From Trypanosoma brucei (lineage: Eukaryota), in the NCBI GenBank assembly GCA_000002445.1, contig AL929603.2:896001-960000 (forward strand): 64,000 bases of DNA, in the 5' to 3' direction. Shown piece after piece: positions 426 to 64,000 of the stretch. The notes under the pieces were generated by a model. The model worked only from the letters and a program-made list of their open reading frames with translations. It was not told the DNA's origin and ran no database searches. Position numbers and translations under genes: made by a program. The first letter of the stretch is position 1; each line of letters begins with the position of its first letter.

Positions 426-430
<5 letters not shown>

Positions 431-461
<31 letters not shown>
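431..461. repeat. (TA)n dinucleotide microsatellite, ~15 units
   Basis: Directly visible uninterrupted tatata run. Confidence 0.95.
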
Positions 462-464
<3 letters not shown>

Positions 465-43161: not shown

Positions 43162-43242
43162 CCTTGTCACCCGTTACGCTGTGTCTGCTTTTCGTTTGTT
43201 TTGTCTCTTTCTCCCAAATTCCTTTTTGCTTCTACCTTCTGT
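43162..43242 (+). promoter_or_regulatory. Polypyrimidine tract 140-220 nt upstream of each array CDS (candidate trans-splice signal; repeated in every unit)
   Basis: gttacgctgtgtctgcttttcgtttgttttgtctctttctcccaaattcctttttgcttctaccttctgtttattg, present identically ahead of all six array genes. Confidence 0.45.
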
Positions 43243-43393
43243 TTATTGATGCGTGTGATAGTGTTTTCCGCTATCGGGACCAGAAGACCATAAGCAAGGT
43301 AACATCTGAGGCCAACCCAATTGCCATCATTTTCTTTGTCGTGAATTGTGAAGCAAACCTTTACCAAGCGTTATTTGAATAGCGGTGTACACG

Positions 43394-44977: not shown

Positions 44978-45835
44978 CGGTCCAACTGAGTGGTGAGCAC
45001 TCCATCGAGTCTGTGTGGTGATGCTGTGGACGGCGTGTCCCCACTGGTTGGACTGTAGTTTCTTCCCTCCCTTTTTTTATATTACGTTATGTTTTTTTTT
45101 TTTCATTTTCCACTCCCTTTCTTTGCCGTTTGCACTTTGCTCGCTTGCATTAAGGATGTCTTGGGGGTCTCTGGACCGAGTGCTGTAAGGAGGAGGGGGC
45201 AATCCTTCCCTATACAAATTACCACATATACTCATTTACACTTATACACATATACGCTTTCTATCAATCCCCACTATTTATATATACCGATTCAATTATA
45301 TGACCATGGAAAAAACATATATACAACTTCCTCCGTATGTAACAGCTTCCCCCGGTACGGCACATAGACCGTCACGGGCCTCCCATTGACATAACTTGTG
45401 CAAGACTCCTGTTCCCTGCTAATTGCAGGGAAGAGACGGCTAATTGGAACTACACCTTCCTCACCCTCATTGTTTTCATTGTTTTCTTTTGTATTTCTAT
45501 TAACCTAAGATAATTTCACTCGCTGTACTTTCTTCCCTCCCTACATCTATATGTTCCCTTATATAACTTTTATACACATGTTTTTTCCTCTCTTTTTCAT
45601 CCTATACAAACATATAAGCATACCTATATACACGTATATACATACATATATATGTTTGTTTTTATATGCCGTGACTTTGTTTCTTTTTTCCCCTTTTTAT
45701 CTCTTTTTATCCCTTTCTTTCTTTTTTTACTTTTTCATTTTGAATGCCCTTATGTAAGTAAATGCTTCTTACTAATAGAGGATTGTCCTTGGCAATTTCT
45801 CTCTTATCATTTTATTTTCCTCTCCCTTGTTCTTT

Positions 45836-46014
45836 TCGTTTTATATCATTTTTCATTTCGTTTCATTTTATATCATTTTTCATTTCGTTTCATTTTATAT
45901 CATTTTTCATTTCGTTTCATTTACTATTTTATTTTACTTTCGTTTCATTTACTATTTTATTTTACTTTTGTTTCTATTTTTGTTTCCGCTGCTCACACAC
46001 ACACACACACACAC
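45836..46014. repeat. Array-spacer minisatellites: 27-nt repeat x3, 25-nt repeat x2, then (CA)~10 (long spacer class)
   Basis: ATTTTATATCATTTTTCATTTCGTTTC x3, then ATTTACTATTTTATTTTACTTT(C/T)GTTTC x2, then cacacacacacacacacacac at 45994-46014. The short-class spacers (after copies 2 and 5) carry one 27-mer copy and (CA)~5, at ~48966-49076 and ~58285-58395. Confidence 0.85.
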
Positions 46015-46521
46015 CCTGCTCTTCCAGTTGCATGACATCATTACACACTAATTGCAGTGGTGCTCCATTTGCTGTTTGCTGAAACGTTTGATTTATTTCT
46101 TGTCCCTTTCCTCAAGCATCTCTTCGTTTAGGCAACACACCATCTTTATGACAAGTGTTTATTGTAATTGTGGTGTTGTGTGATGCAGCGGTAGATTGGA
46201 CGTGTGTGTACACTTGCAGCAGTGCCTCGCACAAATCGTATCTCCTCCCGGGACTTGTGCATGCAAGTTCCCCAATTTTTAACCCGTGGCCTTGTCACCC
46301 GTTACGCTGTGTCTGCTTTTCGTTTGTTTTGTCTCTTTCTCCCAAATTCCTTTTTGCTTCTACCTTCTGTTTATTGATGCGTGTGATAGTGTTTTCCGCT
46401 ATCGGGACCAGAAGACCATAAGCAAGGTAACATCTGAGGCCAACCCAATTGCCATCATTTTCTTTGTCGTGAATTGTGAAGCAAACCTTTACCAAGCGTT
46501 ATTTGAATAGCGGTGTACACG

Positions 46522-48105
46522 ATGTTTTTGAAGGAGGGAAACAGTGAAATGCGGTTGAGCGGAGCAGCGTTCTTGAAGGGCGCTGTTGATGATATCAATG
46601 CATGTGAGTCCCCTGTTTTATCATCCGGAAGCAGTTTGGTTCTTACAAGTCCTGCTCTGAGCACCTCAGACACGTGCCGATCTGCGATGCGTGAAACCAT
46701 CCCTTCCGTTTGTGCTGGCGCAGGCCTCAGCAGTCGCTGCTCAACTGATTGCACTGTGCTGAAGTGTGTGAACCCGCTGCATGTTAAGTTCCAGGAGCCG
46801 TCAGGGTTGTCAGGGGCTGATTCAGTGGACTCGTTTGACTCGTTGGGTGACCTTTCCGAGTTGCATGAGGAACATCAACATGTTTCTTCTGTTGCCTCTG
46901 AAAAGCCTTTGACCCTTCACGATGTGCCGGAATCCGTCCTGTATGGTGCCATTCCATACCTTTCCCTTCCAGACGTCATTGCCTTATCACGGACATGTAA
47001 GAAGTTTCACAAACTGGTGCAGGGATACTTTGCAGTGAATGAGCATGGCGTGATGAGCATCCCCGCCTTTGACACCCGCAGCTTCATGCAGTACCGTCCA
47101 GAGAGGAAACCTCCGGTAACGAAGGCGTCATCTATGGAACCCGCAACGAAAGCTTCGGACGTGAAACCCATCCGTCTGTTTTTTGGCCAGCAACGACGGG
47201 ACCCACACCCCTCAGCTCTACGGCGTCTGCTGCGTTTCATTGCACCTGACCTTGTGATTGCTCACATGGAGGCTCACACGAACCCGGTTAACGGTCGTGG
47301 CAAAGGCTGCGCGTGGGTGTTCGCCCTGTCACAATTGGATGCGGAGCGACTGTTACGACTCAGTGGGCGTATCTTCCTTGACATAAATTCTAATGGTGAG
47401 GAGGTATACCTGTTCGCTCCCCCTAACTGCCGAGAGTGGTTGAATGAGCACGCGGAGTGTGCAGTCGCTTCCGCAGTTCGTCCAAGTCACTTGCCACGAC
47501 AGCCGATGGTTGTGGAAGCCCCCAGGAAGTCGAGTGCCAAAGTGGAGAAGGGGTTGGAACAATGTGTGCGTCCCCATCCACAACATCGCGGTGTTACGGA
47601 GCAGCAGGCACCCGTCGCGGCGGCCCAGCAGATGCCCGACTCTGTGGAACCATTGGTACGAGTTGGGTCTCCACAGGATGAGGGCCTGCAGCAGCAGGAG
47701 CGGCCGTCCGAGGCGTGGACGACCAGCAATCATTTGCAAGGCGACTCAACACACGGAAGGCGCAGGTCAGGGGAGGCTCTGCAGTCGGGTGAGTCCACAC
47801 CTGAGCGTTTGCAAGCAAGGCGCCGCCCATGGTTGGTTGCGGCGGATGCTTCAGCCACTCAGCGTGCCAGGGAGCTTCGGTTTTGCAGCAATTCCTCAAC
47901 TTCTCTTCATCATGAAATGTGGGGATTCCACCCGGGAGCACGCCTTGGCTCTGGGGTAGGCGGTGACAGATTTATTGCGTGTCCCGAGACGACAACACGC
48001 ACTGTGCCCCACAACGTGTACACAAGCACTATATGGACAGGCCCTAGGCGGTTCCGGCACGACCCGTACGTGTACGGCCCACTGTGCGTACTAGCGGCAT
48101 CTTAG
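46522..48105 (+). CDS. CFB1: F-box/RRM-like protein, array copy 2 (CFB1-like), variant haplotype B
   Basis: More than 99% identical to copy 1. Diagnostic substitutions are AAFLKGAVDDINACE (haplotype B) versus ATFLKGAVDDFNACE (haplotype A, copies 1, 3 and 5). Confidence 0.8.
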   Translation: MFLKEGNSEMRLSGAAFLKGAVDDINACESPVLSSGSSLVLTSPALSTSDTCRSAMRETIPSVCAGAGLSSRCSTDCTVLKCVNPLHVKFQEPSGLSGADSVDSFDSLGDLSELHEEHQHVSSVASEKPLTLHDVPESVLYGAIPYLSLPDVIALSRTCKKFHKLVQGYFAVNEHGVMSIPAFDTRSFMQYRPERKPPVTKASSMEPATKASDVKPIRLFFGQQRRDPHPSALRRLLRFIAPDLVIAHMEAHTNPVNGRGKGCAWVFALSQLDAERLLRLSGRIFLDINSNGEEVYLFAPPNCREWLNEHAECAVASAVRPSHLPRQPMVVEAPRKSSAKVEKGLEQCVRPHPQHRGVTEQQAPVAAAQQMPDSVEPLVRVGSPQDEGLQQQERPSEAWTTSNHLQGDSTHGRRRSGEALQSGESTPERLQARRRPWLVAADASATQRARELRFCSNSSTSLHHEMWGFHPGARLGSGVGGDRFIACPETTTRTVPHNVYTSTIWTGPRRFRHDPYVYGPLCVLAAS

Positions 48106-49584
48106 CGGTCCAACTGAGTGGTGAGCACTCCATCGAGTCTGTGTGGTGATGCTGTGGACGGCGTGTCCCCACTGGTTGGACTGTAGTTTCTTCCCTCCCT
48201 TTTTTTATATTACGTTATGTTTTTTTTTTTCATTTTCCACTCCCTTTCTTTGCCGTTTGCACTTTGCTCGCTTGCATTAAGGATGTCTTGGGGGTCTCTG
48301 GACCGAGTGCTGTAAGGAGGAGGGGGCAATCCTTCCCTATACAAATTACCACATATACTCATTTACACTTATACACATATACGCTTTCTATCAATCCCCA
48401 CTATTTATATATACCGATTCAATTATATGACCATGGAAAAAACATATATACAACTTCCTCCGTATGTAACAGCTTCCCCCGGTACGGCACATAGACCGTC
48501 ACGGGCCTCCCATTGACATAACTTGTGCAAGACTCCTGTTCCCTGCTAATTGCAGGGAAGAGACGGCTAATTGGAACTACACCTTCCTCACCCTCATTGT
48601 TTTCATTGTTTTCTTTTGTATTTCTATTAACCTAAGATAATTTCACTCGCTGTACTTTCTTCCCTCCCTACATCTATATGTTCCCTTATATAACTTTTAT
48701 ACACATGTTTTTTCCTCTCTTTTTCATCCTATACAAACATATAAGCATATCTATATACACGTATATACATACATATATATGTTTGTTTTTATATGCCGTG
48801 ACTTTGTTTCTTTTTCCCCCTTTTTATCTCTTTTTATCCCTTTCTTTCTTTTTTTACTTTTTCATTTTGAATGCCCTTATGTAAGTAAACGCTTCTTACT
48901 AATAGAGGATTGTCCTTGGCAATTTCTCTCTTATCATTTTATTTTCCTCTCCCTTGTTCTTTTCGTTTTATATCATTTTTCATTTCGTTTCATTTACTAT
49001 TTTATTTTACTTTTGTTTCATTTACTATTTTATTTTACTTTTGTTTCTATTTTTGTTTCCGCTGCTCACACACACACCCTGCTCTTCCAGTTGCATGACA
49101 TCATTACACACTAATTGCAGTGGTGCTCCATTTGCTGTTTGCTGAAACGTTTGATTTATTTCTTGTCCCTTTCCTCAAGCATCTCTTCGTTTAGGCAACA
49201 CACCATCTTTATGACAAGTGTTTATTGTAATTGTGGTGTTGTGTGATGCAGCGGTAGATTGGACGTGTGTGTACACTTGCAGCAGTGCCTCGCACAAATC
49301 GTATCTCCTCCCGGGACTTGTGCATGCAAGTTCCCCAATTTTTAACCCGTGGCCTTGTCACCCGTTACGCTGTGTCTGCTTTTCGTTTGTTTTGTCTCTT
49401 TCTCCCAAATTCCTTTTTGCTTCTACCTTCTGTTTATTGATGCGTGTGATAGTGTTTTCCGCTATCGGGACCAGAAGACCATAAGCAAGGTAACATCTGA
49501 GGCCAACCCAATTGCCATCATTTTCTTTGTCGTGAATTGTGAAGCAAACCTCTACCAAGCGTTATTTGAATAGCGGTGTACACG

Positions 49585-51168
49585 ATGTTTTTGAAGGAGG
49601 GAAACAGTGAAATGCGGTTGAGCGGAGCTACGTTCTTGAAGGGCGCTGTTGATGATTTCAATGCATGTGAGTCCCCTGTTTTATCATCCGGAAGCAGTTT
49701 GGTTCTCACAAGTCCTGCTCTGAGCACCTCAGACACGTGCCGATCTGCGATGCGTGAAACCATCCCTTCCGTTTGTGCTGGCGCAGGCCTCAGCAGTCGC
49801 TGCTCAACTGATTGCACTGTGCTGAAGTGTGTGAACCCGCTGCATGTTAAGTTCCAGGAGCCGTCAGGGTTGTCAGGGGCTGATTCAGTGGACTCGTTTG
49901 ACTCGTTGGGTGACCTTTCCGAGTTGCATGAGGAACATCAACATGTTTCTTCTGTTGCCTCTGAAAAGCCTTTGACCCTTCACGATGTGCCGGAATCCGT
50001 CCTGTATGGTGCCATTCCATACCTTTCCCTTCCAGACGTCATTGCCTTATCACGGACATGTAAGAAGTTTCACAAACTGGTGCAGGGATACTTTGCAGTG
50101 AATGAGCATGGCGTGATGAGCATCCCCGCCTTTGACACCCGCAGCTTCATGCAGTACCGTCCAGAGAGGAAACCTCCGGTAACGAAGGCGTCATCTATGG
50201 AACCCGCAACGAAAGCTTCGGACGTGAAACCCATCCGTCTGTTTTTTGGCCAGCAACGACGGGACCCACACCCCTCAGCTCTACGGCGTCTGCTGCGCTT
50301 CATTGCACCTGACCTTGTGATTGCTCACATGGAGGCTCACACGAACCCAGTTAACGGTCGTGGCAAAGGCTGCGCGTGGGTGTTCGCCCTGTCACAATTG
50401 GATGCGGAGCGACTGTTACGACTCAGTGGGCGTATCTTCCTTGACATAAATTCTAATGGTGAGGAGGTATACCTGTTCGCTCCCCCTAACTGCCGAGAGT
50501 GGTTGAATGAGCACGCGGAGTGTGCAGTCGCTTCTGCAGTTCGTCCAAGTCACTTGCCACGACAGCCGATGGTTGTGGAAGCCCCCAGGAAGTCGAGTGC
50601 CAAAGTGGAGAAGGGGTTGGAACAATGTGTGCGTCCCCATCCACAACATCGCGGTGTTACGGAGCAGCAGGCACCCGTCGCGGCGGCCCAGCAGATGCCC
50701 GACTCTGTGGAACCATTGGTACGAGTTGGGTCTCCACAGGATGAGGGCCTGCAGCAGCAGGAGCGGCCGTCCGAGGCGTGGACGACCAGCAATCATTTGC
50801 AAGGCGACTCAACACACGGAAGGCGCAGGTCAGGGGAGGCTCTGCAGTCGGGTGAGTCCACACCTGAGCGTTTGCAAGCAAGGCGCCGCCCATGGTTGGT
50901 TGCGGCGGATGCTTCAGCCACTCAGCGTGCCAGGGAGCTTCGGTTTTGCAGCAATTCCTCAACTTCTCTTCATCATGAAATGTGGGGATTCCACCCGGGA
51001 GCACGCCTTGGCTCTGGGGTAGGCGGTGACAGATTTATTGCGTGTCCCGAGACGACAACACGCACTGTGCCCCACAACGTGTACACAAGCACTATATGGA
51101 CAGGCCCTAGGCGGTTCCGGCACGACCCGTACGTGTACGGCCCACTGTGCGTACTAGCGGCATCTTAG
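49585..51168 (+). CDS. CFB1: F-box/RRM-like protein, array copy 3 (CFB1-like), haplotype A
   Basis: Identical in protein to copy 5 and differs from copy 1 at one residue (NHLQ versus NHSQ). Confidence 0.8.
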   Translation: MFLKEGNSEMRLSGATFLKGAVDDFNACESPVLSSGSSLVLTSPALSTSDTCRSAMRETIPSVCAGAGLSSRCSTDCTVLKCVNPLHVKFQEPSGLSGADSVDSFDSLGDLSELHEEHQHVSSVASEKPLTLHDVPESVLYGAIPYLSLPDVIALSRTCKKFHKLVQGYFAVNEHGVMSIPAFDTRSFMQYRPERKPPVTKASSMEPATKASDVKPIRLFFGQQRRDPHPSALRRLLRFIAPDLVIAHMEAHTNPVNGRGKGCAWVFALSQLDAERLLRLSGRIFLDINSNGEEVYLFAPPNCREWLNEHAECAVASAVRPSHLPRQPMVVEAPRKSSAKVEKGLEQCVRPHPQHRGVTEQQAPVAAAQQMPDSVEPLVRVGSPQDEGLQQQERPSEAWTTSNHLQGDSTHGRRRSGEALQSGESTPERLQARRRPWLVAADASATQRARELRFCSNSSTSLHHEMWGFHPGARLGSGVGGDRFIACPETTTRTVPHNVYTSTIWTGPRRFRHDPYVYGPLCVLAAS

Positions 51169-52711
51169 CGGTCCAACTGAGTGGTGAGCACTCCATCGAG
51201 TCTGTGTGGTGATGCTGTGGACGGCGTGTCCCCACTGGTTGGACTGTAGTTTCTTCCCTCCCTTTTTTTATATTACGTTATGTTTTTTTTTTTCATTTTC
51301 CACTCCCTTTCTTTGCCGTTTGCACTTTGCTCGCTTGCATTAAGGATGTCTTGGGGGTCTCTGGACCGAGTGCTGTAAGGAGGAGGGGGCAATCCTTCCC
51401 TATACAAATTACCACATATACTCATTTACACTTATACACATATACGCTTTCTATCAATCCCCACTATTTATATATACCGATTCAATTATATGACCATGGA
51501 AAAAACATATATACAGCTTCCTCCGTATGTAACAGCTTCCCCCGGTACGGCACATAGACCGTCACGGGCCTCCCATTGACATAACTTGTGCAAGACTCCT
51601 GTTCCCTGCTAATTGCAGGGAAGAGACGGCTAATTGGAACTACACCTTCCTCACCCTCATTGTTTTCATTGTTTTCTTTTGTATTTCTATTAACCTAAGA
51701 TAATTTCACTCGCTGTACTTTCTTCCCTCCCTACATCTATATGTTCCCTTATATAACTTTTATACACATGTTTTTTCCTCTCTTTTTCATCCTATACAAA
51801 CATATAAGCATACCTATATACACGTATATACATACATATATATGTTTGTTTTTATATGCCGTGACTTTGTTTCTTTTTTCCCCTTTTTATCTCTTTTTAT
51901 CCCTTTCTTTCTTTTTTTACTTTTTCATTTTGAATGCCCTTATGTAAGTAAATGCTTCTTACTAATAGAGGATTGTCCTTGGCAATTTCTCTCTTATCAT
52001 TTTATTTTCCTCTCCCTTGTTCTTTTCGTTTTATATCATTTTTCATTTCGTTTCATTTTATATCATTTTTCATTTCGTTTCATTTTATATCATTTTTCAT
52101 TTCGTTTCATTTACTATTTTATTTTACTTTCGTTTCATTTACTATTTTATTTTACTTTTGTTTCTATTTTTGTTTCCGCTGCTCACACACACACACACAC
52201 ACACCCTGCTCTTCCAGTTGCATGACATCATTACACACTAATTGCAGTGGTGCTCCATTTGCTGTTTGCTGAAACGTTTGATTTATTTCTTGTCCCTTTC
52301 CTCAAGCATCTCTTCGTTTAGGCAACACACCATCTTTATGACAAGTGTTTATTGTAATTGTGGTGTTGTGTGATGCAGCGGTAGATTGGACGTGTGTGTA
52401 CACTTGCAGCAGTGCCTCGCACAAATCGTATCTCCTCCCGGGACTTGTGCATGCAAGTTCCCCAATTTTTAACCCGTGGCCTTGTCACCCGTTACGCTGT
52501 GTCTGCTTTTCGTTTGTTTTGTCTCTTTCTCCCAAATTCCTTTTTGCTTCTACCTTCTGTTTATTGATGCGTGTGATAGTGTTTTCCGCTATCGGGACCA
52601 GAAGACCATAAGCAAGGTAACATCTGAGGCCAACCCAATTGCCATCATTTTCTTTGTCGTGAATTGTGAAGCAAACCTTTACCAAGCGTTATTTGAATAG
52701 CGGTGTACACG

Positions 52712-54295
52712 ATGTTTTTGAAGGAGGGAAACAGTGAAATGCGGTTGAGCGGAGCAGCGTTCTTGAAGGGCGCTGTTGATGATATCAATGCATGTGAGTC
52801 CCCTGTTTTATCATCCGGAAGCAGTTTGGTTCTTACAAGTCCTGCTCTGAGCACCTCAGACACGTGCCGATCTGCGATGCGTGAAACCATCCCTTCCGTT
52901 TGTGCTGGCGCAGGCCTCAGCAGTCGCTGCTCAACTGATTGCACTGTGCTGAAGTGTGTGAACCCGCTGCATGTTAAGTTCCAGGAGCCGTCAGGGTTGT
53001 CAGGGGCTGATTCAGTGGACTCGTTTGACTCGTTGGGTGACCTTTCCGAGTTGCATGAGGAACATCAACATGTTTCTTCTGTTGCCTCTGAAAAGCCTTT
53101 GACCCTTCACGATGTGCCGGAATCCGTCCTGTATGGTGCCATTCCATACCTTTCCCTTCCAGACGTCATTGCCTTATCACGGACATGTAAGAAGTTTCAC
53201 AAACTGGTGCAGGGATACTTTGCAGTGAATGAGCATGGCGTGATGAGCATCCCCGCCTTTGACACCCGCAGCTTCATGCAGTACCGTCCGGAGAGGAAAC
53301 CTCCGGTAACGAAGGCGTCATCTATGGAACCCGCAACGAAAGCTTCGGACGTGAAGCCCATCCGTCTGTTTTTTGGCCAGCAACGACGGGACCCACACCC
53401 CTCAGCTCTACGGCGTCTGCTGCGCTTCATTGCACCTGACCTTGTGATTGCTCACATGGAGGCTCACACGAACCCAGTTAACGGTCGTGGCAAAGGCTGC
53501 GCGTGGGTGTTCGCCCTGTCACAATTGGATGCGGAGCGACTGTTACGACTCAGTGGGCGTATCTTCCTTGACATAAATTCTAATGGTGAGGAGGTATACC
53601 TGTTCGCTCCCCCTAACTGCCGAGAGTGGTTGAATGAGCACGCGGAGTGTGCAGTCGCTTCCGCAGTTCGTCCAAGTCACTTGCCACGACAGCCGATGGT
53701 TGTGGAAGCCCCCAGGAAGTCGAGTGCCAAAGTGGAGAAGGGGTTGGAACAATGTGTGCGTCCCCATCCACAACATCGCGGTGTTACGGAGCAGCAGGCA
53801 CCCGTCGCGGCGGCCCAGCAGATGCCCGACTCTGTGGAACCATTGGTACGAGTTGGGTCTCCACAGGATGAGGGCCTGCAGCAGCAGGAGCGGCCGTCCG
53901 AGGCGTGGACGACCAGCAATCATTTGCAAGGCGACTCAACACACGGAAGGCGCAGGTCAGGGGAGGCTCTGCAGTCGGGTGAGTCCACACCTGAGCGTTT
54001 GCAAGCAAGGCGCCGCCCATGGTTGGTTGCGGCGGATGCTTCAGCCACTCAGCGTGCCAGGGAGCTTCGGTTTTGCAGCAATTCCTCAACTTCTCTTCAT
54101 CATGAAATGTGGGGATTCCACCCGGGAGCACGCCTTGGCTCTGGGGTAGGCGGTGACAGATTTATTGCGTGTCCCGAGACGACAACACGCACTGTGCCCC
54201 ACAACGTGTACACAAGCACTATATGGACAGGCCCTAGGCGGTTCCGGCACGACCCGTACGTGTACGGCCCACTGTGCGTACTAGCGGCATCTTAG
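52712..54295 (+). CDS. CFB1: F-box/RRM-like protein, array copy 4 (CFB1-like), haplotype B
   Basis: Protein identical to copy 2. Confidence 0.8.
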   Translation: MFLKEGNSEMRLSGAAFLKGAVDDINACESPVLSSGSSLVLTSPALSTSDTCRSAMRETIPSVCAGAGLSSRCSTDCTVLKCVNPLHVKFQEPSGLSGADSVDSFDSLGDLSELHEEHQHVSSVASEKPLTLHDVPESVLYGAIPYLSLPDVIALSRTCKKFHKLVQGYFAVNEHGVMSIPAFDTRSFMQYRPERKPPVTKASSMEPATKASDVKPIRLFFGQQRRDPHPSALRRLLRFIAPDLVIAHMEAHTNPVNGRGKGCAWVFALSQLDAERLLRLSGRIFLDINSNGEEVYLFAPPNCREWLNEHAECAVASAVRPSHLPRQPMVVEAPRKSSAKVEKGLEQCVRPHPQHRGVTEQQAPVAAAQQMPDSVEPLVRVGSPQDEGLQQQERPSEAWTTSNHLQGDSTHGRRRSGEALQSGESTPERLQARRRPWLVAADASATQRARELRFCSNSSTSLHHEMWGFHPGARLGSGVGGDRFIACPETTTRTVPHNVYTSTIWTGPRRFRHDPYVYGPLCVLAAS

Positions 54296-55840
54296 CGGTC
54301 CAACTGAGTGGTGAGCACTCCATCGAGTCTGTGTGGTGATGCTGTGGACGGCGTGTCCCCACTGGTTGGACTGTAGTTTCTTCCCTCCCTTTTTTTATAT
54401 TACGTTATGTTTTTTTTTTTCATTTTCCACTCCCTTTCTTTGCCGTTTGCACTTTGCTCGCTTGCATTAAGGATGTCTTGGGGGTCTCTGGACCGAGTGC
54501 TGTAAGGAGGAGGGGGCAATCCTTCCCTATACAAATTACCACATATACTCATTTACACTTATACACATATACGCTTTCTATCAATCCCCACTATTTATAT
54601 ATACCGATTCAATTATATGACCATGGAAAAAACATATATACAACTTCCTCCGTATGTAACAGCTTCCCCCGGTACGGCACATAGACCGTCACGGGCCTCC
54701 CATTGACATAACTTGTGCAAGACTCCTGTTCCCTGCTAATTGCAGGGAAGAGACGGCTAATTGGAACTACACCTTCCTCACCCTCATTGTTTTCATTGTT
54801 TTCTTTTGTATTTCTATTAACCTAAGATAATTTCACTCGCTGTACTTTCTTCCCTCCCTACATCTATATGTTCCCTTATATAACTTTTATACACATGTTT
54901 TTTCCTCTCTTTTTCATCCTATACAAACATATAAGCATACCTATATACACGTATATACATACATATATATGTTTGTTTTTATATGCCGTGACTTTGTTTC
55001 TTTTTTCCCCTTTTTATCTCTTTTTATCCCTTTCTTTCTTTTTTTACTTTTTCATTTTGAATGCCCTTATGTAAGTAAATGCTTCTTACTAATAGAGGAT
55101 TGTCCTTGGCAATTTCTCTCTTATCATTTTATTTTCCTCTCCCTTGTTCTTTTCGTTTTATATCATTTTTCATTTCGTTTCATTTTATATCATTTTTCAT
55201 TTCGTTTCATTTTATATCATTTTTCATTTCGTTTCATTTACTATTTTATTTTACTTTCGTTTCATTTACTATTTTATTTTACTTTTGTTTCTATTTTTGT
55301 TTCCGCTGCTCACACACACACACACACACACACCCTGCTCTTCCAGTTGCATGACATCATTACACACTAATTGCAGTGGTGCTCCATTTGCTGTTTGCTG
55401 AAACGTTTGATTTATTTCTTGTCCCTTTCCTCAAGCATCTCTTCGTTTAGGCAACACACCATCTTTATGACAAGTGTTTATTGTAATTGTGGTGTTGTGT
55501 GATGCAGCGGTAGATTGGACGTGTGTGTACACTTGCAGCAGTGCCTCGCACAAATCGTATCTCCTCCCGGGACTTGTGCATGCAAGTTCCCCAATTTTTA
55601 ACCCGTGGCCTTGTCACCCGTTACGCTGTGTCTGCTTTTCGTTTGTTTTGTCTCTTTCTCCCAAATTCCTTTTTGCTTCTACCTTCTGTTTATTGATGCG
55701 TGTGATAGTGTTTTCCGCTATCGGGACCAGAAGACCATAAGCAAGGTAACATCTGAGGCCAACCCAATTGCCATCATTTTCTTTGTCGTGAATTGTGAAG
55801 CAAACCTTTACCAAGCGTTATTTGAATAGCGGTGTACACG

Positions 55841-57424
55841 ATGTTTTTGAAGGAGGGAAACAGTGAAATGCGGTTGAGCGGAGCTACGTTCTTGAAGGGC
55901 GCTGTTGATGATTTCAATGCATGTGAGTCCCCTGTTTTATCATCCGGAAGCAGTTTGGTTCTTACAAGTCCTGCTCTGAGCACCTCAGACACGTGCCGAT
56001 CTGCGATGCGTGAAACCATCCCTTCCGTTTGTGCTGGCGCAGGCCTCAGCAGTCGCTGCTCAACTGATTGCACTGTGCTGAAGTGTGTGAACCCGCTGCA
56101 TGTTAAGTTCCAGGAGCCGTCAGGGTTGTCAGGGGCTGATTCAGTGGACTCGTTTGACTCGTTGGGTGACCTTTCCGAGTTGCATGAGGAACATCAACAT
56201 GTTTCTTCTGTTGCCTCTGAAAAGCCTTTGACCCTTCACGATGTGCCGGAATCCGTCCTGTATGGTGCCATTCCATACCTTTCCCTTCCAGACGTCATTG
56301 CCTTATCACGGACATGTAAGAAGTTTCACAAACTGGTGCAGGGATACTTTGCAGTGAATGAGCATGGCGTGATGAGCATCCCCGCCTTTGACACCCGCAG
56401 CTTCATGCAGTACCGTCCAGAGAGGAAACCTCCGGTAACGAAGGCGTCATCTATGGAACCCGCAACGAAAGCTTCGGACGTGAAACCCATCCGTCTGTTT
56501 TTTGGCCAGCAACGACGGGACCCACACCCCTCAGCTCTACGGCGTCTGCTGCGCTTCATTGCACCTGACCTTGTGATTGCTCACATGGAGGCTCACACGA
56601 ACCCAGTTAACGGTCGTGGCAAAGGCTGCGCGTGGGTGTTCGCCCTGTCACAATTGGATGCGGAGCGACTGTTACGACTCAGTGGGCGTATCTTCCTTGA
56701 CATAAATTCTAATGGTGAGGAGGTATACCTGTTCGCTCCCCCTAACTGCCGAGAGTGGTTGAATGAGCACGCGGAGTGTGCAGTCGCTTCCGCAGTTCGT
56801 CCAAGTCACTTGCCACGACAGCCGATGGTTGTGGAAGCCCCCAGGAAGTCGAGTGCCAAAGTGGAGAAGGGGTTGGAACAATGTGTGCGTCCCCATCCAC
56901 AACATCGCGGTGTTACGGAGCAGCAGGCACCCGTCGCGGCGGCCCAGCAGATGCCCGACTCTGTGGAACCATTGGTACGAGTTGGGTCTCCACAGGATGA
57001 GGGCCTGCAGCAGCAGGAGCGGCCGTCCGAGGCGTGGACGACCAGCAATCATTTGCAAGGCGACTCAACACACGGAAGGCGCAGGTCAGGGGAGGCTCTG
57101 CAGTCGGGTGAGTCCACACCTGAGCGTTTGCAAGCAAGGCGCCGCCCATGGTTGGTTGCGGCGGATGCTTCAGCCACTCAGCGTGCCAGGGAACTTCGGT
57201 TTTGCAGCAATTCCTCAACTTCTCTTCATCATGAAATGTGGGGATTCCACCCGGGAGCACGCCTTGGCTCTGGGGTAGGCGGTGACAGATTTATTGCGTG
57301 TCCCGAGACGACAACACGCACTGTGCCCCACAACGTGTACACAAGCACTATATGGACAGGCCCTAGGCGGTTCCGGCACGACCCGTACGTGTACGGCCCA
57401 CTGTGCGTACTAGCGGCATCTTAG
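55841..57424 (+). CDS. CFB1: F-box/RRM-like protein, array copy 5 (CFB1-like), haplotype A
   Basis: Protein identical to copy 3. Confidence 0.8.
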   Translation: MFLKEGNSEMRLSGATFLKGAVDDFNACESPVLSSGSSLVLTSPALSTSDTCRSAMRETIPSVCAGAGLSSRCSTDCTVLKCVNPLHVKFQEPSGLSGADSVDSFDSLGDLSELHEEHQHVSSVASEKPLTLHDVPESVLYGAIPYLSLPDVIALSRTCKKFHKLVQGYFAVNEHGVMSIPAFDTRSFMQYRPERKPPVTKASSMEPATKASDVKPIRLFFGQQRRDPHPSALRRLLRFIAPDLVIAHMEAHTNPVNGRGKGCAWVFALSQLDAERLLRLSGRIFLDINSNGEEVYLFAPPNCREWLNEHAECAVASAVRPSHLPRQPMVVEAPRKSSAKVEKGLEQCVRPHPQHRGVTEQQAPVAAAQQMPDSVEPLVRVGSPQDEGLQQQERPSEAWTTSNHLQGDSTHGRRRSGEALQSGESTPERLQARRRPWLVAADASATQRARELRFCSNSSTSLHHEMWGFHPGARLGSGVGGDRFIACPETTTRTVPHNVYTSTIWTGPRRFRHDPYVYGPLCVLAAS

Positions 57425-58903
57425 CGGTCCAACTGAGTGGTGAGCACTCCATCGAGTCTGTGTGGTGATGCTGTGGACGGCGTGTCCCCACTGGTTGGAC
57501 TGTAGTTTCTTCCCTCCCTTTTTTTATATTACGTTATGTTTTTTTTTTTCATTTTCCACTCCCTTTCTTTGCCGTTTGCACTTTGCTCGCTTGCATTAAG
57601 GATGTCTTGGGGGTCTCTGGACCGAGTGCTGTAAGGAGGAGGGGGCAATCCTTCCCTATACAAATTACCACATATACTCATTTACACTTATACACATATA
57701 CGCTTTCTATCAATCCCCACTATTTATATATACCGATTCAATTATATGACCATGGAAAAAACATATATACAACTTCCTCCGTATGTAACAGCTTCCCCCG
57801 GTACGGCACATAGACCGTCACGGGCCTCCCATTGACATAACTTGTGCAAGACTCCTGTTCCCTGCTAATTGCAGGGAAGAGACGGCTAATTGGAACTACA
57901 CCTTCCTCACCCTCATTGTTTTCATTGTTTTCTTTTGTATTTCTATTAACCTAAGATAATTTCACTCGCTGTACTTTCTTCCCTCCCTACATCTATATGT
58001 TCCCTTATATAACTTTTATACACATGTTTTTTCCTCTCTTTTTCATCCTATACAAACATATAAGCATATCTATATACACGTATATACATACATATATATG
58101 TTTGTTTTTATATGCCGTGACTTTGTTTCTTTTTCCCCCTTTTTATCTCTTTTTATCCCTTTCTTTCTTTTTTTACTTTTTCATTTTGAATGCCCTTATG
58201 TAAGTAAACGCTTCTTACTAATAGAGGATTGTCCTTGGCAATTTCTCTCTTATCATTTTATTTTCCTCTCCCTTGTTCTTTTCGTTTTATATCATTTTTC
58301 ATTTCGTTTCATTTACTATTTTATTTTACTTTTGTTTCATTTACTATTTTATTTTACTTTTGTTTCTATTTTTGTTTCCGCTGCTCACACACACACCCTG
58401 CTCTTCCAGTTGCATGACATCATTACACACTAATTGCAGTGGTGCTCCATTTGCTGTTTGCTGAAACGTTTGATTTATTTCTTGTCCCTTTCCTCAAGCA
58501 TCTCTTCGTTTAGGCAACACACCATCTTTATGACAAGTGTTTATTGTAATTGTGGTGTTGTGTGATGCAGCGGTAGATTGGACGTGTGTGTACACTTGCA
58601 GCAGTGCCTCGCACAAATCGTATCTCCTCCCGGGACTTGTGCATGCAAGTTCCCCAATTTTTAACCCGTGGCCTTGTCACCCGTTACGCTGTGTCTGCTT
58701 TTCGTTTGTTTTGTCTCTTTCTCCCAAATTCCTTTTTGCTTCTACCTTCTGTTTATTGATGCGTGTGATAGTGTTTTCCGCTATCGGAACCAGAAGACCA
58801 TAAGCAAGGTAACATCTGAGGCCAACCCAATTGCCATCATTTTCTTTGTCGTGAATTGTGAAGCAAACCTCTACCAAGCGTTATTTGAATAGCGGTGTAC
58901 ACG

Positions 58904-60334
58904 ATGTCCTTGGAGGAGGGAAGCAGTGAAATGCGGTTGAGCGGAGCAGCGTTCTTGAAGGGCGCTGTTGATGATTTCCATGCGGGTAAATCTTCTGCTT
59001 TGTCATCTGGTAGCAGTCCTGCGCTTACTGTGTCTGTTTTTAGTACGCCGGCGTTCGGTTGTTCGACATTTGGTAACTCATCGCCGGTTTGTGGCGGCCA
59101 TGAAGCCAACTACGAAGCTGTTGCGCTCCGTGATGCCCCCTTGAGCAGTCGAGGTATCGTTGCTTGGGATAGGATGAAGTGTGAGAGCTCACTTTTTGTG
59201 AAACTTCAGGCGTCTTCAGGGTTGTCCGGAACCGACTCAGAGGACATAGCTAACCCGTTAGTGGATCTTTCGGATGCTTGCGGAACAGATGCCCTTTCCG
59301 AGTTGCGTGAGGAACATCAACATATTTCTTCTGTTGCCTCTGAAAAGCCTTTGACCCTTCACGATGTGCCGGAATCCGTCCTGTATGGTGCCATTCCATA
59401 CCTTTCCCTTCCAGACGTCATTGCCTTATCACGGACATGTAAGAAGTTTCACAAACTGGTGCAGGGATACTTTGCAGTGAATGAGCATGGCGTGATGAGC
59501 ATCCCCGCCTTTGACACCCGCAGCTTCATGCAGTACCGTCCAGAGAGGAAACCTCCGGTAACGAAGGTCACAGCCGCGGGACCCGCCCCTAAAATTCCTG
59601 GTGTGAAACCCATCCGTCTGTTTTTTGGCCAGCAACGACGGGACGTTTATCCCTCAGCTCTACGGCGTCTGCTGCGCTTCATTGCACCTGACCTTGTTAT
59701 CACTCACATGGAGGCTCACGTGAATGAGGCAACTGGTCGGGGCAAAGGCTGCGCATGGGTTATTGTTCCTTCAGTGTTGGAGGCGAAACGACTGTTACGA
59801 CTCAGTGGGCGTATCTTCCTTGACATAAATTCTAATGGTGAGGAGGTATACCTGTTCGCTCCCCCTAACTGCCGAGAGTGGTTAAGTGAGTACGCCGACT
59901 ACGTTGTCTCCTCAACAACTCGTGCAAGCCATCTTCCGTACTTACCAATGGTTGTTGGAGTACCGAAGAAGGAGTGTATATATGTACGTGAGCTTTTGGC
60001 ACCTTATATTTATGATCCCAATCGCGGTGACTGTCCGCCATATGCCGACGCGGTTTCGGAGTTTAAGGGCTTATTGGAGGATCATGCGTTACTTCCAGTA
60101 TCTTCCGCCGTATCGGGCATTATTCCTCCTTTTGCTTCTGTTCCTCCTATGGTGCAGACTTGCATGTTTTCTTCCTCTTTTGATCGTAGAGAATACTTTG
60201 AAGCCCCCAACGTTTATACCAGCACGGTGTGGACTGGCTTCAGTCGGTACCGCCATGATCCGTATGTGTTTGATCCACTACGGGAGCCAACGAACATGTT
60301 ACCGCTGCATGAAGTGGATTACGCTGAGATGTAG
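58904..60334 (+). CDS. CFB2: Divergent terminal array member: F-box/RRM-like protein with C-terminal RYRHDPY motif (CFB2-like)
   Basis: The track start 58895 is GTG; the ATG is 58904 (MSLEEGSSEMRL). The N-terminal ~110 aa and the C-terminal ~150 aa are diverged from CFB1. The central F-box and RRM-like core (EKPLTLHDVPESVLYG...QYRPERKPPVTK; PIRLFFGQQRRD; LRLSGRIFLDINSNGEEVYLFAPPNCREWL) is nucleotide-identical to CFB1 over long tracts. HDPY at 60254-60265 (cgc cat gat ccg tat) sits inside RYRHDPYVFDPL. The spacer upstream of it is of the short array class, and the sequence downstream of the stop is unique. Symbol assigned from memory, unverified. Confidence 0.75.
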   Translation: MSLEEGSSEMRLSGAAFLKGAVDDFHAGKSSALSSGSSPALTVSVFSTPAFGCSTFGNSSPVCGGHEANYEAVALRDAPLSSRGIVAWDRMKCESSLFVKLQASSGLSGTDSEDIANPLVDLSDACGTDALSELREEHQHISSVASEKPLTLHDVPESVLYGAIPYLSLPDVIALSRTCKKFHKLVQGYFAVNEHGVMSIPAFDTRSFMQYRPERKPPVTKVTAAGPAPKIPGVKPIRLFFGQQRRDVYPSALRRLLRFIAPDLVITHMEAHVNEATGRGKGCAWVIVPSVLEAKRLLRLSGRIFLDINSNGEEVYLFAPPNCREWLSEYADYVVSSTTRASHLPYLPMVVGVPKKECIYVRELLAPYIYDPNRGDCPPYADAVSEFKGLLEDHALLPVSSAVSGIIPPFASVPPMVQTCMFSSSFDRREYFEAPNVYTSTVWTGFSRYRHDPYVFDPLREPTNMLPLHEVDYAEM

Positions 60335-63300: not shown

Positions 63301-64000
63301 GAAAAAGAAAAATTAAAAATTAAAAAAAATGTGAAAAAAAAAAGAGTCAGACAGGCACAAAAACACAAACACGCAAACACACGCATATGCGCACACATAT
63401 AAATACACATATAGATAAATACAAATAATGATGGGAAAAAAAATGTAAATAGCTATTACTATTATTACTATTATTATTATTATTACTATTATTATTATTG
63501 TTATTAGTTCGTCATTATTATGAGTTTTCGCTTTTTGTTCATTCCCCATTTGCACAAAACATATGAAACACACACATGTATGCATATTCGCGTCCATTCG
63601 CTCATAGAAAGCAGAAAAGAAGAAACAAAAACAACAACAACAGCAACAACAACAGAAAAAAGATTCAAATGACAAAAATCATCAGAAGAAAAAAAAAGAA
63701 AAAAGAGAAAACGTTTATGTAAATATAATTAAGAAAAGTTACGTTAGCGTTTGGATGCGGGCGCATATTTATGTGTTTTGTGTGTTTTATGTGTGTGGAA
63801 TAAATGTTTGAGGAATGAAATAATGAGCTGGCAGAAGCTGACGGTACGAAATGACAGCAAAAAACAATAACAACACCCCTCATCTTTTTCTTTTTCTTCT
63901 TTTTTTTTTTTCATCATTTTCTGAATGGGAAATTTCCCTTCTTTTTCTTTTTTTTCTTTTTTTCTTCTTTTTTTTCCACTCATGAGTTTCATTTATTTAT

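What the first reader, a model, noticed from the sequence alone, without database searches (positions are those of the whole stretch)
58904..60334. Terminal array member is a gene-conversion mosaic: CFB1-identical F-box/RRM core flanked by diverged N- and C-termini that retain the HDPY motif
Around 59330-59580 and 59790-59880 the sixth gene is nucleotide-identical to CFB1 copies, covering the F-box through QYRPERKPPVTK and LRLSGRIFLDINSNGEEVYLFAPPNCREWL. The first ~110 aa and last ~150 aa are clearly different and shorter: RYRHDPYVFDPLREPTNMLPLHEVDYAEM versus RFRHDPYVYGPLCVLAAS. The core is therefore being homogenised by the neighbouring array. The termini and the 3' flank (probably the 3'UTR) evolve independently. 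Independently evolving termini and 3'UTR are consistent with the paralogue at the array edge having a distinct function and regulation. The RxxHDPY motif survives in both divergent C-termini, which suggests it is under constraint.
Basis: partly seen in the sequence, partly recalled or inferred. Interest (0 to 1): 0.7.

Follow-up and report, generated by a model that had tools for sequence, protein, structure and literature searches.

The report
CFB2: gene-conversion mosaic at array edge
The last gene of this trypanosome tandem array (CFB2, the known stabiliser of the parasite's coat-protein mRNA) is a patchwork: parts are kept identical to its neighbours by DNA copying and parts stay distinct, which is a real but ordinary kind of event in an already well-studied gene.

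Summary
The window is T. brucei TREU927 chromosome 1. The ORF at 58904-60334 is CFB2 (Tb927.1.4650), downstream of five CFB1 copies. CFB2 is nucleotide-identical to CFB1 over 59325-59567 (243 nt) and 59789-59883 (95 nt). Synonymous divergence is 0 in these tracts, ~0.5 between them and saturated in both termini; permutation gave 0 of 20000. Gene conversion is further supported. T. equiperdum CFB2 carries a 9-substitution patch copied from CFB1. The edge of tract 1 differs between subspecies. T. congolense has a syntenic CFB2 orthologue with CFB2-type termini but a core identical to its own CFB1-like neighbour.

Corrections: the first 25 codons and the whole 1.5-kb upstream spacer are also array-identical, so only the 3' side is private. 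The N-terminus is longer, not shorter. The motif is H[D/E]PY in T. brucei and T. congolense, with H shifted or missing in T. vivax. The 'RRM' label is missed by Pfam but supported by a profile (CELF1, E=2e-7) and a confident model.

Most of this is known: CFB2 function, HDPY-MKT1 binding (already mutated) and concerted evolution of this array (Jackson 2007). New here are the tract map, the polymorphic patches, a duplication older than the brucei-congolense split, and the RRM assignment.

The parts
43018..58894 (+). CFB1 tandem array: five complete repeat units of 3063-3129 nt. The first unit is preceded by only 367 nt of spacer-type sequence.
   Evidence: BLAST of one unit against the window gave 97.4-100% identity over five units with a left limit at 43018. 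The CFB1 CDSs differ from each other at 1-7 sites.
55841..57424 (+). CFB1 copy 5 CDS (527 codons from the ATG), used as the reference donor-type sequence. The other copies are at 43394-44977, 46522-48105, 49585-51168 and 52712-54295.
   Evidence: The proteins are identical to TREU927 entries P0012, P0016 and P0020.
57425..58903 (+). Spacer upstream of CFB2 (CFB1 3'UTR, intergenic region and shared 5'UTR region). It is the array-type 'short' variant.
   Evidence: It differs from the spacer between CFB1 copies 2 and 3 by 1 substitution and 0 gaps. The last 367 nt before the ATG differ from all CFB1 copies by at most 2 nt.
58904..60334 (+). CFB2 CDS (476 codons plus stop), Tb927.1.4650.
   Evidence: identical to XP_001219158.1.
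58904..58978 (+). 5' shared segment, a continuation of the array-identical upstream spacer into the CDS.
   Evidence: 6 of 75 nt differ from CFB1 and dS is 0.13. In gambiense, positions 58913 and 58923 carry the CFB1 state.
58979..59293 (+). CFB2-private N-terminal segment. It is orthologous to the N-terminus of the T. congolense CFB2-like protein.
   Evidence: dS is 1.46 against CFB1. Protein identity is 51% to the T. congolense CFB2-like protein and 41% to T. brucei CFB1.
59294..59567 (+). Conversion tract 1 (exact run 59325-59567 in TREU927). It encodes the F-box (Pfam match at residues 154-186, 59363-59461) and the linker up to ...RPERKPPVTK.
   Evidence: 2 of 274 nt differ and dS is 0 over 63 synonymous sites. 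The 5' edge is 59294 in equiperdum, 59308 in gambiense and 59325 in TREU927.
59568..59788 (+). Intermediate segment: the RRM from the pre-beta1 linker to alpha2. It holds the paralogue-specific loop residues (VY248-249, the beta2-beta3 loop VNEAT, and the beta3/alpha2 junction).
   Evidence: dS is 0.50, with 42- and 47-nt identical runs. The differences are mapped onto the model.
59720..59734 (+). Site of a polymorphic conversion patch. In T. equiperdum CFB2, 9 substitutions here switch to the exact CFB1 sequence (VNEAT to TNPVN).
   Evidence: As a result, equiperdum has an extra 58-nt identical run at 59703-59760.
59789..59883 (+). Conversion tract 2. It encodes the end of RRM alpha2, beta4, beta5 and the start of alpha3 (RLLRLSGRIFLDINSNGEEVYLFAPPNCREWL).
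   Evidence: 0 of 95 nt differ in all three Trypanozoon genomes. dS is 0 over 23 synonymous sites.
59606..59959 (+). RRM-fold domain (about residues 235-352): beta1-alpha1-beta2-beta3-alpha2-beta4-beta5, plus a C-terminal helix and strand.
   Evidence: The AF2 model has pLDDT 93.4. Foldseek hits with E<1e-3 are all RRMs. The profile hits CELF1 at E 2.3e-7.
59884..60334 (+). CFB2-private C-terminal segment, shorter than that of CFB1. It is orthologous to the T. congolense CFB2-like C-terminus.
   Evidence: dS against CFB1 is saturated. Protein identity is 46% to the T. congolense CFB2-like protein and 36% to CFB1, and both CFB2-type proteins share the tail DPLR[ED]PT..PL.EVD.
60245..60265 (+). 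RYRHDPY (residues 448-454), the published MKT1-interaction motif.
   Evidence: The sequence is. D452, P453 and Y454 are invariant in A1. The function is from PMC3985637 and PMC8051951.
60335..64000 (+). CFB2-private, AT-rich, repeat-rich 3' flank (3'UTR and intergenic region). It runs off the window.
   Evidence: It shows no similarity to the CFB1 spacer or to the T. congolense flank. It is colinear at about 95% in T. equiperdum and T. b. gambiense. Low-complexity repeats are listed.

Best explanation
CFB2 is an old paralogue sitting at the 3' edge of the CFB1 array, and non-allelic gene conversion with the CFB1 copies repeatedly overwrites parts of it. Homologous recombination within the array keeps the five CFB1 units and their spacers almost identical. 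Because CFB2 shares the whole upstream spacer, exchanges run into its first ~75 nt. Two internal patches, the F-box plus linker and RRM beta4-beta5, are also kept identical. The N-terminal middle, the RNA-facing loops of the RRM, the C-terminus with its own version of the MKT1 motif region, and the entire 3' flank are not overwritten. Shown here: the tract map, the zero silent-site divergence in the tracts, recent polymorphic conversion events, and the species-wise versus orthology-wise split of phylogenetic signal. Inferred: conversions that would erase the CFB2-specific parts are removed by selection, because CFB2 has a distinct essential job (published: binding and stabilising VSG mRNA through MKT1). 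Also inferred: sequence divergence itself then blocks further heteroduplex spread, and the private 3'UTR gives CFB2 its own expression profile.
For: Sliding-window identity shows the mosaic, and the exact runs are 243 and 95 nt. dS by segment is 0.13, 1.46, 0, 0.50, 0 and >2.7. Permutation gave 0/20000 for the whole CDS, and 0 and 3 of 20000 using third positions only within the core. Most of the 24 between-strain differences in CFB2 toggle to or from the CFB1 state. They include a 9-substitution block at 59720-59734 in T. equiperdum and staggered 5' edges of tract 1. T. congolense has adjacent CFB1-like (P0003) and CFB2-like (P0160) genes, and the CFB2-like gene lies upstream of the same 323-aa and PRMT genes. 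In the 5' end and the two tracts, T. brucei CFB2 is 84/98/100% identical to T. brucei CFB1 but 36/62/75% to its T. congolense orthologue. In the N-terminal, middle and C-terminal parts the figures are 41/70/36% against 51/82/46%. Informative sites are 45:0:0 (species: orthology: third topology) in converted partitions and 12:8:0 elsewhere, Fisher p = 2.5e-5. Three independent assemblies agree. Published context: whole-gene concerted evolution of array Tb927.1.4540-4650 (PMC1855330) and copy-number change of the CFB cluster in culture (PMC8459984).
Against: The direction of transfer in the two large tracts cannot be told, because both partners are identical. The 3' edge of tract 1 and both edges of tract 2 are the same in all three Trypanozoon genomes, so those two tracts could each result from a single event before the Trypanozoon radiation rather than from continual renewal. 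The orthology signal for the CFB1-type copies is modest: 8 sites, with 12 species-type sites in the same partitions. No full-length T. congolense DNA was available, so that comparison is at protein level. Selection as the cause of the tract limits is inferred, not tested.
Confidence: 0.85

Rival explanations
1. There is no recombination. The identical tracts simply reflect very strong purifying selection on the F-box and part of the RRM.
For: The tracts coincide with recognisable domains: the F-box and RRM beta4-beta5. The F-box binds a common partner, SKP1 (PMC8051951).
Against: Protein-level selection does not remove silent differences, yet 0 of about 86 synonymous sites differ in the tracts, against pS 0.37 in the adjacent RRM segment. 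The same residues are only 62-75% conserved between T. brucei and T. congolense. The multi-nucleotide patch copied from CFB1 in T. equiperdum cannot arise by selection alone.
Confidence: 0.03
2. CFB2 arose by a recent duplication of a CFB1 unit inside T. brucei, and its termini then diverged very fast. [quoted passage not shown]
For: Whole-gene trees group paralogues by species (PMC1855330; statement in PMC8051951). 12 species-type informative sites occur even outside the tracts.
Against: Silent sites in the termini are saturated (dS 1.5 to >2.7), the same order as the T. brucei-T. congolense comparison. Fast protein evolution cannot produce that. T. congolense has a positional orthologue with CFB2-type N- and C-termini and the shared derived residues V248/Y249 and PKKE.
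Confidence: 0.07
3. The mosaic is an assembly artefact. Reads from CFB1 copies were collapsed into the CFB2 consensus in a repeat-rich region.
For: The locus is a near-perfect 3-kb tandem array. The T. b. gambiense assembly of this region contains gaps and an odd gene order.
Against: The same tracts are present in three independent assemblies: TREU927, DAL972 and T. equiperdum. Each has its own private differences and tract edges. Published RNA-seq notes reads shared between the CFB1 and CFB2 coding regions (PMC8051951).
Confidence: 0.02
4. The mosaic dates from one or two ancient exchange events (a chimeric origin by unequal crossing-over), and there is no ongoing conversion. The tracts look identical only because too little time has passed within Trypanozoon.
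For: Three of the four tract edges are fixed across the three Trypanozoon genomes. Trypanozoon divergence is so low that about one difference or fewer is expected in 369 nt.
Against: The tracts are identical although T. brucei-T. congolense silent divergence is saturated, so the events are much younger than the duplication. T. congolense independently shows 100/96/100% identity between its two paralogues in the same segments. There are at least three lineage-specific exchanges since the Trypanozoon radiation: the equiperdum patch, gambiense 58913/58923, and the staggered 5' edge of tract 1.
Confidence: 0.15

Closest known systems
T. brucei CFB2 (cyclin F-box protein 2, Tb927.1.4650) as described by Benz & Clayton 2007, Singh et al. 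2014 (PMC3985637) and Melo do Nascimento et al. 2021 (PMC8051951)
   Same: It is this gene: the protein is identical to XP_001219158.1. Its position downstream of the CFB1 copies, the F-box, the 'conserved central region', the RYRHDPY MKT1 motif, the shared coding sequence with CFB1 and the different 3'UTR are all published.
   Different: The papers I could search do not mention gene conversion and state that copies arose after species divergence. They call the UTRs different, whereas the 5' flank is array-identical. They treat the RNA-binding domain as unconventional or unidentified, whereas here it scores as an RRM.
Partial (allelic or non-allelic) gene conversion and concerted evolution in T. 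brucei tandem gene arrays (Jackson 2007, BMC Evol Biol 7:54, PMC1855330)
   Same: This is the same phenomenon: 76 conversion events in 21 of 47 arrays, chimaeric copies, and conversions spanning start codons and UTRs. This very array (no. 6, Tb927.1.4540-4650, 6 copies, F-box) was found to fit a concerted topology.
   Different: No conversion event was recorded for array 6 in that survey (Table S1). The whole-gene test also rejected orthology, whereas partitioning the gene reveals orthology in the termini.
'Mixed dynamics' arrays with a divergent end copy that keeps orthology across species (Tb24, 64a, 80, 105a, 109c in PMC1855330)
   Same: There is a divergent copy at the 3' end with a distinctive C-terminus and an unrelated 3' UTR. 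Its private parts are orthologous to the end copy of another species.
   Different: In those arrays the divergent copy is said always to have remodelled intergenic sequences on both sides and to be segregated from the array. Here the upstream spacer and the 5' end are array-identical and the core is still being exchanged.
CELF/Bruno-type RRM domains (e.g. CUGBP1 RRM1/2, PDB 2dhs, 3nmr)
   Same: They share the beta-alpha-beta-beta-alpha-beta fold. RNP2 R-L-F-F-G-Q matches K-M-F-V-G-Q, and RNP1 K-G-C-A-W-V matches K-G-C-C-F-V, including the unusual Cys at RNP1 position 3.
   Different: Sequence identity is below 25% and there is no Pfam RRM_1 hit with the single sequence. The domain has an extra beta5, a long C-terminal helix and a conserved LPRQP-x-VVE strand. 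It is embedded between an F-box and an MKT1 motif.

Membership tests
CFB2 (Tb927.1.4650) orthologue group | Protein sequence identity to the reference CFB2 | tested here: met
   The window protein equals P0008 (XP_001219158.1, TREU927) exactly. It is 99% identical to the gambiense and equiperdum CFB2.
CFB2 (Tb927.1.4650) orthologue group | Single gene immediately downstream of the CFB1 tandem copies, upstream of the ~330-aa gene and PRMT | tested here: met
   Five CFB1 copies precede it. The downstream synteny is seen in T. equiperdum L002 and T. congolense L005. The window itself ends before those genes.
CFB2 (Tb927.1.4650) orthologue group | F-box able to bind SKP1 | tested here: inconclusive
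   Pfam F-box-like scores 17.8 bits against a cut-off of 24.3, and F-box scores 16.0 against 20.5. SKP1 binding is published (PMC8051951) and cannot be tested here.
CFB2 (Tb927.1.4650) orthologue group | C-terminal MKT1-interaction motif matching (H/N)(D/E/N/Q)PY | tested here: met
   RYRHDPY lies at residues 448-454 (60245-60265). The consensus is from PMC3985637. T. congolense CFB2 has HEPY, which is within the consensus. T. vivax copies have RDPY or YDPY, which are outside it.
Non-allelic gene conversion / concerted evolution | Identical tracts significantly longer than expected from the overall distribution of differences | tested here: met
   The 243- and 95-nt runs gave 0/20000 permutations. 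Third positions only, within the core, gave 0 and 3 of 20000.
Non-allelic gene conversion / concerted evolution | Silent-site identity inside tracts but silent divergence in flanking coding sequence | tested here: met
   dS is 0 in the tracts, against 0.50, 1.46 and >2.7 in the neighbouring segments.
Non-allelic gene conversion / concerted evolution | Different segments of one gene support different trees (paralogues group by species in converted parts and by orthology elsewhere) | tested here: met
   Informative sites are 45:0:0 against 12:8:0, Fisher p = 2.5e-5. This is protein level only for T. congolense.
Non-allelic gene conversion / concerted evolution | Lineage-specific tracts with an identifiable donor | tested here: met
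   The T. equiperdum CFB2 patch at 59720-59734 equals the CFB1 sequence at all 9 sites. Gambiense 58913/58923 and the staggered edge of tract 1 add further cases.
Non-allelic gene conversion / concerted evolution | Dependence on the homologous recombination machinery, or direct observation of an event | not testable with these tools
   This needs experimental evolution or recombination mutants.
RRM (RNA recognition motif) fold | beta1-alpha1-beta2-beta3-alpha2-beta4 topology that superposes on solved RRMs | tested here: met
   The AF2 model from the 43-sequence alignment has pLDDT 93.4. All 41 Foldseek PDB hits with E<1e-3 are RRMs, and the best is RBM39 RRM2 with TM 0.77 normalised to the target.
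RRM (RNA recognition motif) fold | RNP2 and RNP1 consensus motifs on beta1 and beta3 | tested here: met
   The profile aligns R-x-F-x-G-Q and G-K-G-C-A-W-V to the CELF1 RNP2 and RNP1 motifs. RNP1 position 3 is Cys, as in CELF, and position 5 is Trp.
RRM (RNA recognition motif) fold | Significant match to the Pfam RRM_1 model | tested here: not met
   There is no RRM family at E<=1 for CFB2 or CFB1. A family profile does reach solved RRM sequences (CELF1 E 2.3e-7; all 54 hits are RRM proteins).
RRM (RNA recognition motif) fold | RNA binding mediated by this domain | not testable with these tools
   CFB2 association with VSG mRNA through the 16-mer is published (PMC8051951), but the domain responsible was not mapped in the text I read.
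'Mixed dynamics' end copy (Jackson 2007) | Divergent end copy flanked by remodelled intergenic sequences on both sides | tested here: not met
   The 3' flank is unrelated, but the 5' spacer is identical to an internal spacer apart from 1 nt.

The most novel reading that the evidence does not exclude
The conversion limits may be held in place by selection, and the shielded parts may define CFB2's function. In T. brucei and T. congolense independently, and in a similar way in T. vivax, the same pieces are kept identical between paralogues: the 5' end, the F-box plus linker, and RRM beta4-beta5. The RNA-facing loops of a previously unrecognised CELF-like RRM stay paralogue-specific, as do the termini; the loops are the beta1-alpha1 loop (VY in CFB2-type, PH in CFB1-type), the beta2-beta3 loop and the beta3/alpha2 junction. 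On this reading those loops set CFB2's specificity for the VSG 3'UTR 16-mer. The T. equiperdum allele, whose beta2-beta3 loop has been overwritten by CFB1, would then be a natural domain-swap experiment.
Probability: 0.3. Interest if true: 0.5.

Novelty: new member of a known kind. Interest (0 to 1): 0.3.

Why it matters
CFB2 is essential for the bloodstream trypanosome because it stabilises VSG mRNA, so it matters which parts of the protein are its own and which are shared with CFB1. This affects RNAi and antibody specificity, read mapping, and structure-function work. The tract map shows that any probe inside 59294-59567 or 59789-59883, or in the 5'UTR, cannot tell CFB2 from CFB1. The partitioned comparison changes the evolutionary picture: a CFB2-type gene already existed before T. 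brucei and T. congolense separated, so CFB2 is not a T. brucei-specific offshoot. Assigning the 'conserved central region' to the RRM fold gives a concrete, testable candidate for the unidentified RNA-binding domain. It also points to a handful of paralogue-specific loop residues. None of this alters the known mechanism, and the recombination process itself is commonplace in trypanosome arrays.

Tried and rejected
Four rival explanations were considered and rejected or down-weighted.
- Pure purifying selection on the tracts was rejected on silent sites.
- Recent duplication with fast-evolving termini was rejected on saturated dS and on the T. congolense positional orthologue.
- Assembly artefact was rejected because three assemblies agree, each with private differences.
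- Conserved 3'UTR elements shared with CFB1 or with the T. congolense flank were sought, and BLAST found none.

Several searches led nowhere or reached a limit.
- Pfam with single sequences gave only sub-threshold F-box hits and no RRM.
- The first AF2 run, on a 5-sequence full-length alignment, was unusable (pLDDT 38).
- The word-indexed protein search reached no further than the Salivaria, even with a profile.
- The P0005-type T. vivax paralogue was not found in the syntenic T. vivax array locus L004.
- No full-length T. congolense DNA was on record for P0003 or P0160; only the 3' third is held, on L005.
- Benz & Clayton 2007 is not held, so I could not check whether the shared tracts were already drawn there.
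- Cluster look-ups of the wider RRM+HNPY family returned only unnamed metagenome or Logan proteins, so their organisms remain unknown.
Full report
**Identity of the locus.** The window holds five nearly identical 530-codon ORFs, followed by a 479-codon ORF at 58895-60334 whose first ATG is at 58904. The protein from 58904 is identical to XP_001219158.1 of T. b. brucei TREU927. The upstream proteins are identical to TREU927 entries annotated as F-box proteins. This is therefore the chromosome 1 CFB locus: five CFB1 genes and CFB2 (Tb927.1.4650). The repeat array starts at 43018 and runs through five complete units of 3063-3129 nt. The sixth unit continues into CFB2 only as two blocks, 58895-59017 (87%) and 59290-59931 (89%).

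**Check of the observation.** In a codon-guided alignment the exact identical runs are 59325-59567 (243 nt) and 59789-59883 (95 nt), with smaller runs of 47 and 42 nt between them.
- Shuffling the 344 differences over the 1305 aligned positions never gave a run longer than 62 nt in 20000 trials.
- A stricter test used only third codon positions inside the conserved core. It gave 0/20000 for the first run and 3/20000 for the second.

Nei-Gojobori estimates by segment:

| Segment | Description | dS |
|---|---|---|
| 58895-58978 | 5' shared end | 0.13 |
| 58979-59293 | N-terminal, private | 1.46 |
| 59294-59567 | tract 1 (63 silent sites) | 0 |
| 59568-59788 | between the tracts | 0.50 |
| 59789-59883 | tract 2 (23 silent sites) | 0 |
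| 59884 onwards | C-terminal, private | >2.7 |

Constraint on the protein cannot erase silent differences, so the tracts have a much younger common ancestry than the rest of the gene.

- The similarity does not begin at the F-box. The complete 1479-nt spacer upstream of CFB2 differs from the spacer between CFB1 copies 2 and 3 by one substitution and no gaps.
- The last 367 nt before the ATG differ from every CFB1 copy by at most 2 nt, and the first 75 coding nt differ at 6 sites. Only the 3' side of CFB2 is private.
- From 59932 onward BLAST finds nothing in common with the array. The 3' flank has no counterpart in the CFB1 spacer.
- The CFB2 N-terminal region is longer than that of CFB1, not shorter. 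Only the C-terminus is shorter.

**Direct evidence for exchange.** I fetched the CFB2 loci of T. b. gambiense DAL972 (L001) and T. equiperdum (L002).
- The three CFB2 genes differ at 24 sites. At most of these, one allele carries a CFB2-private base and another carries the base found in all CFB1 copies.
- In T. equiperdum, nine substitutions within 59720-59734 convert the CFB2 sequence to the exact CFB1 sequence, changing VNEAT to TNPVN.
- In gambiense, positions 58913 and 58923 carry the CFB1 state.
- The 5' edge of tract 1 lies at 59294 in equiperdum, 59308 in gambiense and 59325 in TREU927. Its 3' edge and both edges of tract 2 are fixed.

These are lineage-specific conversion events with an identifiable donor. 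They also rule out an assembly artefact, since three assemblies carry the tracts with their own private differences.

**Age of the paralogues.** An exhaustive profile search and cluster look-ups turned up a T. congolense IL3000 protein, P0160 (CCC89419.1, 471 aa). Its accession is adjacent to that of the 530-aa CFB1-like P0003 (CCC89418.1). Its 3' part lies on contig L005, directly upstream of a 323-aa gene and the PRMT gene. That is the same neighbourhood as CFB2 in T. equiperdum.

Protein identity by partition:

| Partition | T. brucei CFB2 vs T. brucei CFB1 | T. brucei CFB2 vs T. congolense CFB2-like | T. congolense pair |
|---|---|---|---|
| 5' end | 84% | 36% | 100% |
| Tract 1 | 98% | 62% | 96% |
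| Tract 2 | 100% | 75% | 100% |
| N-terminal | 41% | 51% | 47% |
| Middle | 70% | 82% | 89% |
| C-terminal | 36% | 46% | 46% |

- Four-taxon informative sites are 45 species-type, 0 orthology-type and 0 of the third type in the converted partitions. In the others they are 12, 8 and 0 (Fisher p = 2.5e-5).
- At residue 248 both paralogue types carry shared derived states: P in CFB1-type and V in CFB2-type, against A/A/N in T. vivax and T. rangeli.
- The CFB2-type tail DPLR[ED]PT..PL.EVD is shared across the two species.
- T. brucei-T. congolense silent sites are saturated, the same order as between the CFB1 and CFB2 termini.

The simplest reading is that two paralogues already existed in the common ancestor, and that the same parts of the gene have been homogenised independently in each species. 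[quoted passage not shown] It also refines the whole-gene result of Jackson 2007 for this array, where orthology was rejected and concerted evolution accepted.

The support for orthology of the CFB1-type copies is modest, and it is at protein level only.

T. vivax shows a comparable mosaic: about 600 nt of core at 82-100% identity between two paralogue types, with unalignable termini. Those two sequences come from different assemblies.

**The 'RRM' label.** Pfam gives only sub-threshold F-box hits for CFB1 and CFB2 and no RRM. The profile search showed that the central region (profile positions ~240-362) has more than 100 relatives at 50% clustering, in proteins of many architectures.
- A 43-sequence alignment of the domain (A2) matched only RRM proteins among solved structures. 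The best hit was CELF1/CUGBP1 at E = 2.3e-7, with R-x-F-x-G-Q aligned to RNP2 and G-K-G-C-A-W-V to RNP1.
- AlphaFold2 on A2 gave pLDDT 93.4, with beta1-alpha1-beta2-beta3-alpha2-beta4-beta5, a long helix and a final strand.
- All 41 Foldseek hits in the PDB with E<1e-3 are RRMs. The best is RBM39 RRM2, with TM 0.77 normalised to the target.

The papers I could read call this part 'a conserved central region' of an 'unconventional RNA-binding protein'. I found no paper that assigns it to the RRM fold, but I could not check domain databases.

Within the RRM, the CFB1/CFB2 differences avoid RNP2, the RNP1 core, alpha1, beta4 and beta5. They cluster in the beta1-alpha1 loop, the beta2-beta3 loop, the beta3/alpha2 junction and the C-terminal helix. 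From general knowledge of RRMs, these are regions that often tune RNA specificity.

**The motif.** RYRHDPY lies at residues 448-454 (60245-60265). Across the Salivaria only D/E-P-Y is constant. T. congolense CFB2 has RYRHEPY, which is inside the published (H/N)(D/E/N/Q)PY consensus. The T. vivax copies have YHRDPY and HRYDPY, which are outside it. The last 46 codons have omega ~0.24 between the T. brucei and T. congolense orthologues.

The function is already established. The nonapeptide PRRFRHDPY suffices for the MKT1 two-hybrid interaction (PMC3985637). An HDPY mutant of CFB2 neither binds MKT1 nor activates a reporter (PMC8051951).

**Mechanism.**
- Shown: the array and its spacers are homogenised; exchanges reach into CFB2 from the shared upstream spacer and as internal patches; events have occurred since the Trypanozoon radiation.
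- Inferred: conversions that would overwrite the CFB2-specific N-terminus, RRM loops, C-terminus or 3'UTR are removed by selection, because CFB2 has a distinct, essential role. The accumulated divergence there then limits heteroduplex extension.
- The private 3' flank fits the published difference in expression between CFB1 and CFB2. Trypanosome mRNA levels are set mainly through 3'UTRs; this last point is general knowledge.

**Novelty and score.** The following are all published:
- the gene, its function and its motif;
- the fact that CFB1 and CFB2 share coding sequence;
- concerted evolution of this array;
- the general frequency of partial gene conversion in T. brucei arrays (76 events in 21 of 47 arrays).

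The following are not in the literature I could search:
- the explicit tract map, given that array 6 has no event recorded in Jackson's Table S1;
- the polymorphic patches;
- the identity of the 5' flank with the array spacer;
- the evidence that the duplication predates the brucei-congolense split;
- the RRM assignment.

These are useful refinements for people working on CFB2, not a new kind of system. I rate it a new member of a known kind, with interest 0.3.

Noticed in passing
window 59576-59983 (CFB2 residues 225-360); relatives P0042-P0159: The CFB central RRM-type domain occurs in more than 100 clusters (50% identity) of otherwise different proteins. Some have an F-box or a zinc-ribbon-like CxxC pair just upstream. 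In 84 of 147 sequences scanned, an xH(N/D)PY-type motif lies downstream of the domain. The published view is that CFB genes are Trypanosoma/Paratrypanosoma-specific. The source organisms of these relatives (ENA, JGI, Logan) could not be identified.
   Followed up: partly
L003:2528-3128 versus L004:10476-11076 (T. vivax): Two T. vivax CFB paralogue types (492 aa P0005 and 543 aa P0004) share a ~600-nt core at 82-100% identity, but their termini and flanks are at chance level. This is the same mosaic layout as in T. brucei. P0005 has a CFB2-like ending (NPLRAPT). It was not found in the syntenic array locus L004. The two sequences come from different assemblies.
   Followed up: partly
L001 (T. 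b. gambiense DAL972, FN554964.1:680719-702149): In this assembly CFB2 is preceded by truncated CFB1-like ORFs (306 and 279 aa) and followed by full CFB1 copies. The locus contains 728 N. This is probably a scaffolding problem in the repeat rather than a real rearrangement.
   Followed up: no
window 43385-58894: The array alternates between long (3127-3129 nt) and short (3063 nt) units that differ by a ~65-nt indel in the spacer. CFB1 copies fall into two 5'-end haplotypes: copies 1, 3 and 5 against copies 2 and 4, differing at CDS positions 54, 55 and 82. The CFB2 5' end in TREU927 carries the copy 2/4 state at 58948-58949. In T. equiperdum, CFB2 and all three CFB1 copies read carry the other state.
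   Followed up: partly
window 59739 region (CFB1 equivalents in L001 and L002): At one site just 3' of the equiperdum patch (GGTCGGGGC versus GGTCGTGGC), the CFB1 copies of T. equiperdum and T. b. gambiense carry the CFB2 state, while the TREU927 CFB1 copies do not. This may be an exchange in the opposite direction (CFB2 to CFB1) or an old polymorphism.
   Followed up: no
window 44316-44831 and the equivalent position in each CFB1 copy; 59886-60353 in CFB2: ORFs of 155-171 codons lie in an alternative frame inside every CFB gene. They are listed mechanically and were not examined. They are most likely a by-product of composition.
   Followed up: no
window 60600-64000, also 1-4000 and 34000-36000: These are strongly AT-rich stretches (GC 0.27-0.35) full of short low-complexity repeats. 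The one downstream of CFB2 extends for about 6 kb to the next gene in T. equiperdum, and is only ~95% conserved with many indels among Trypanozoon genomes.
   Followed up: partly
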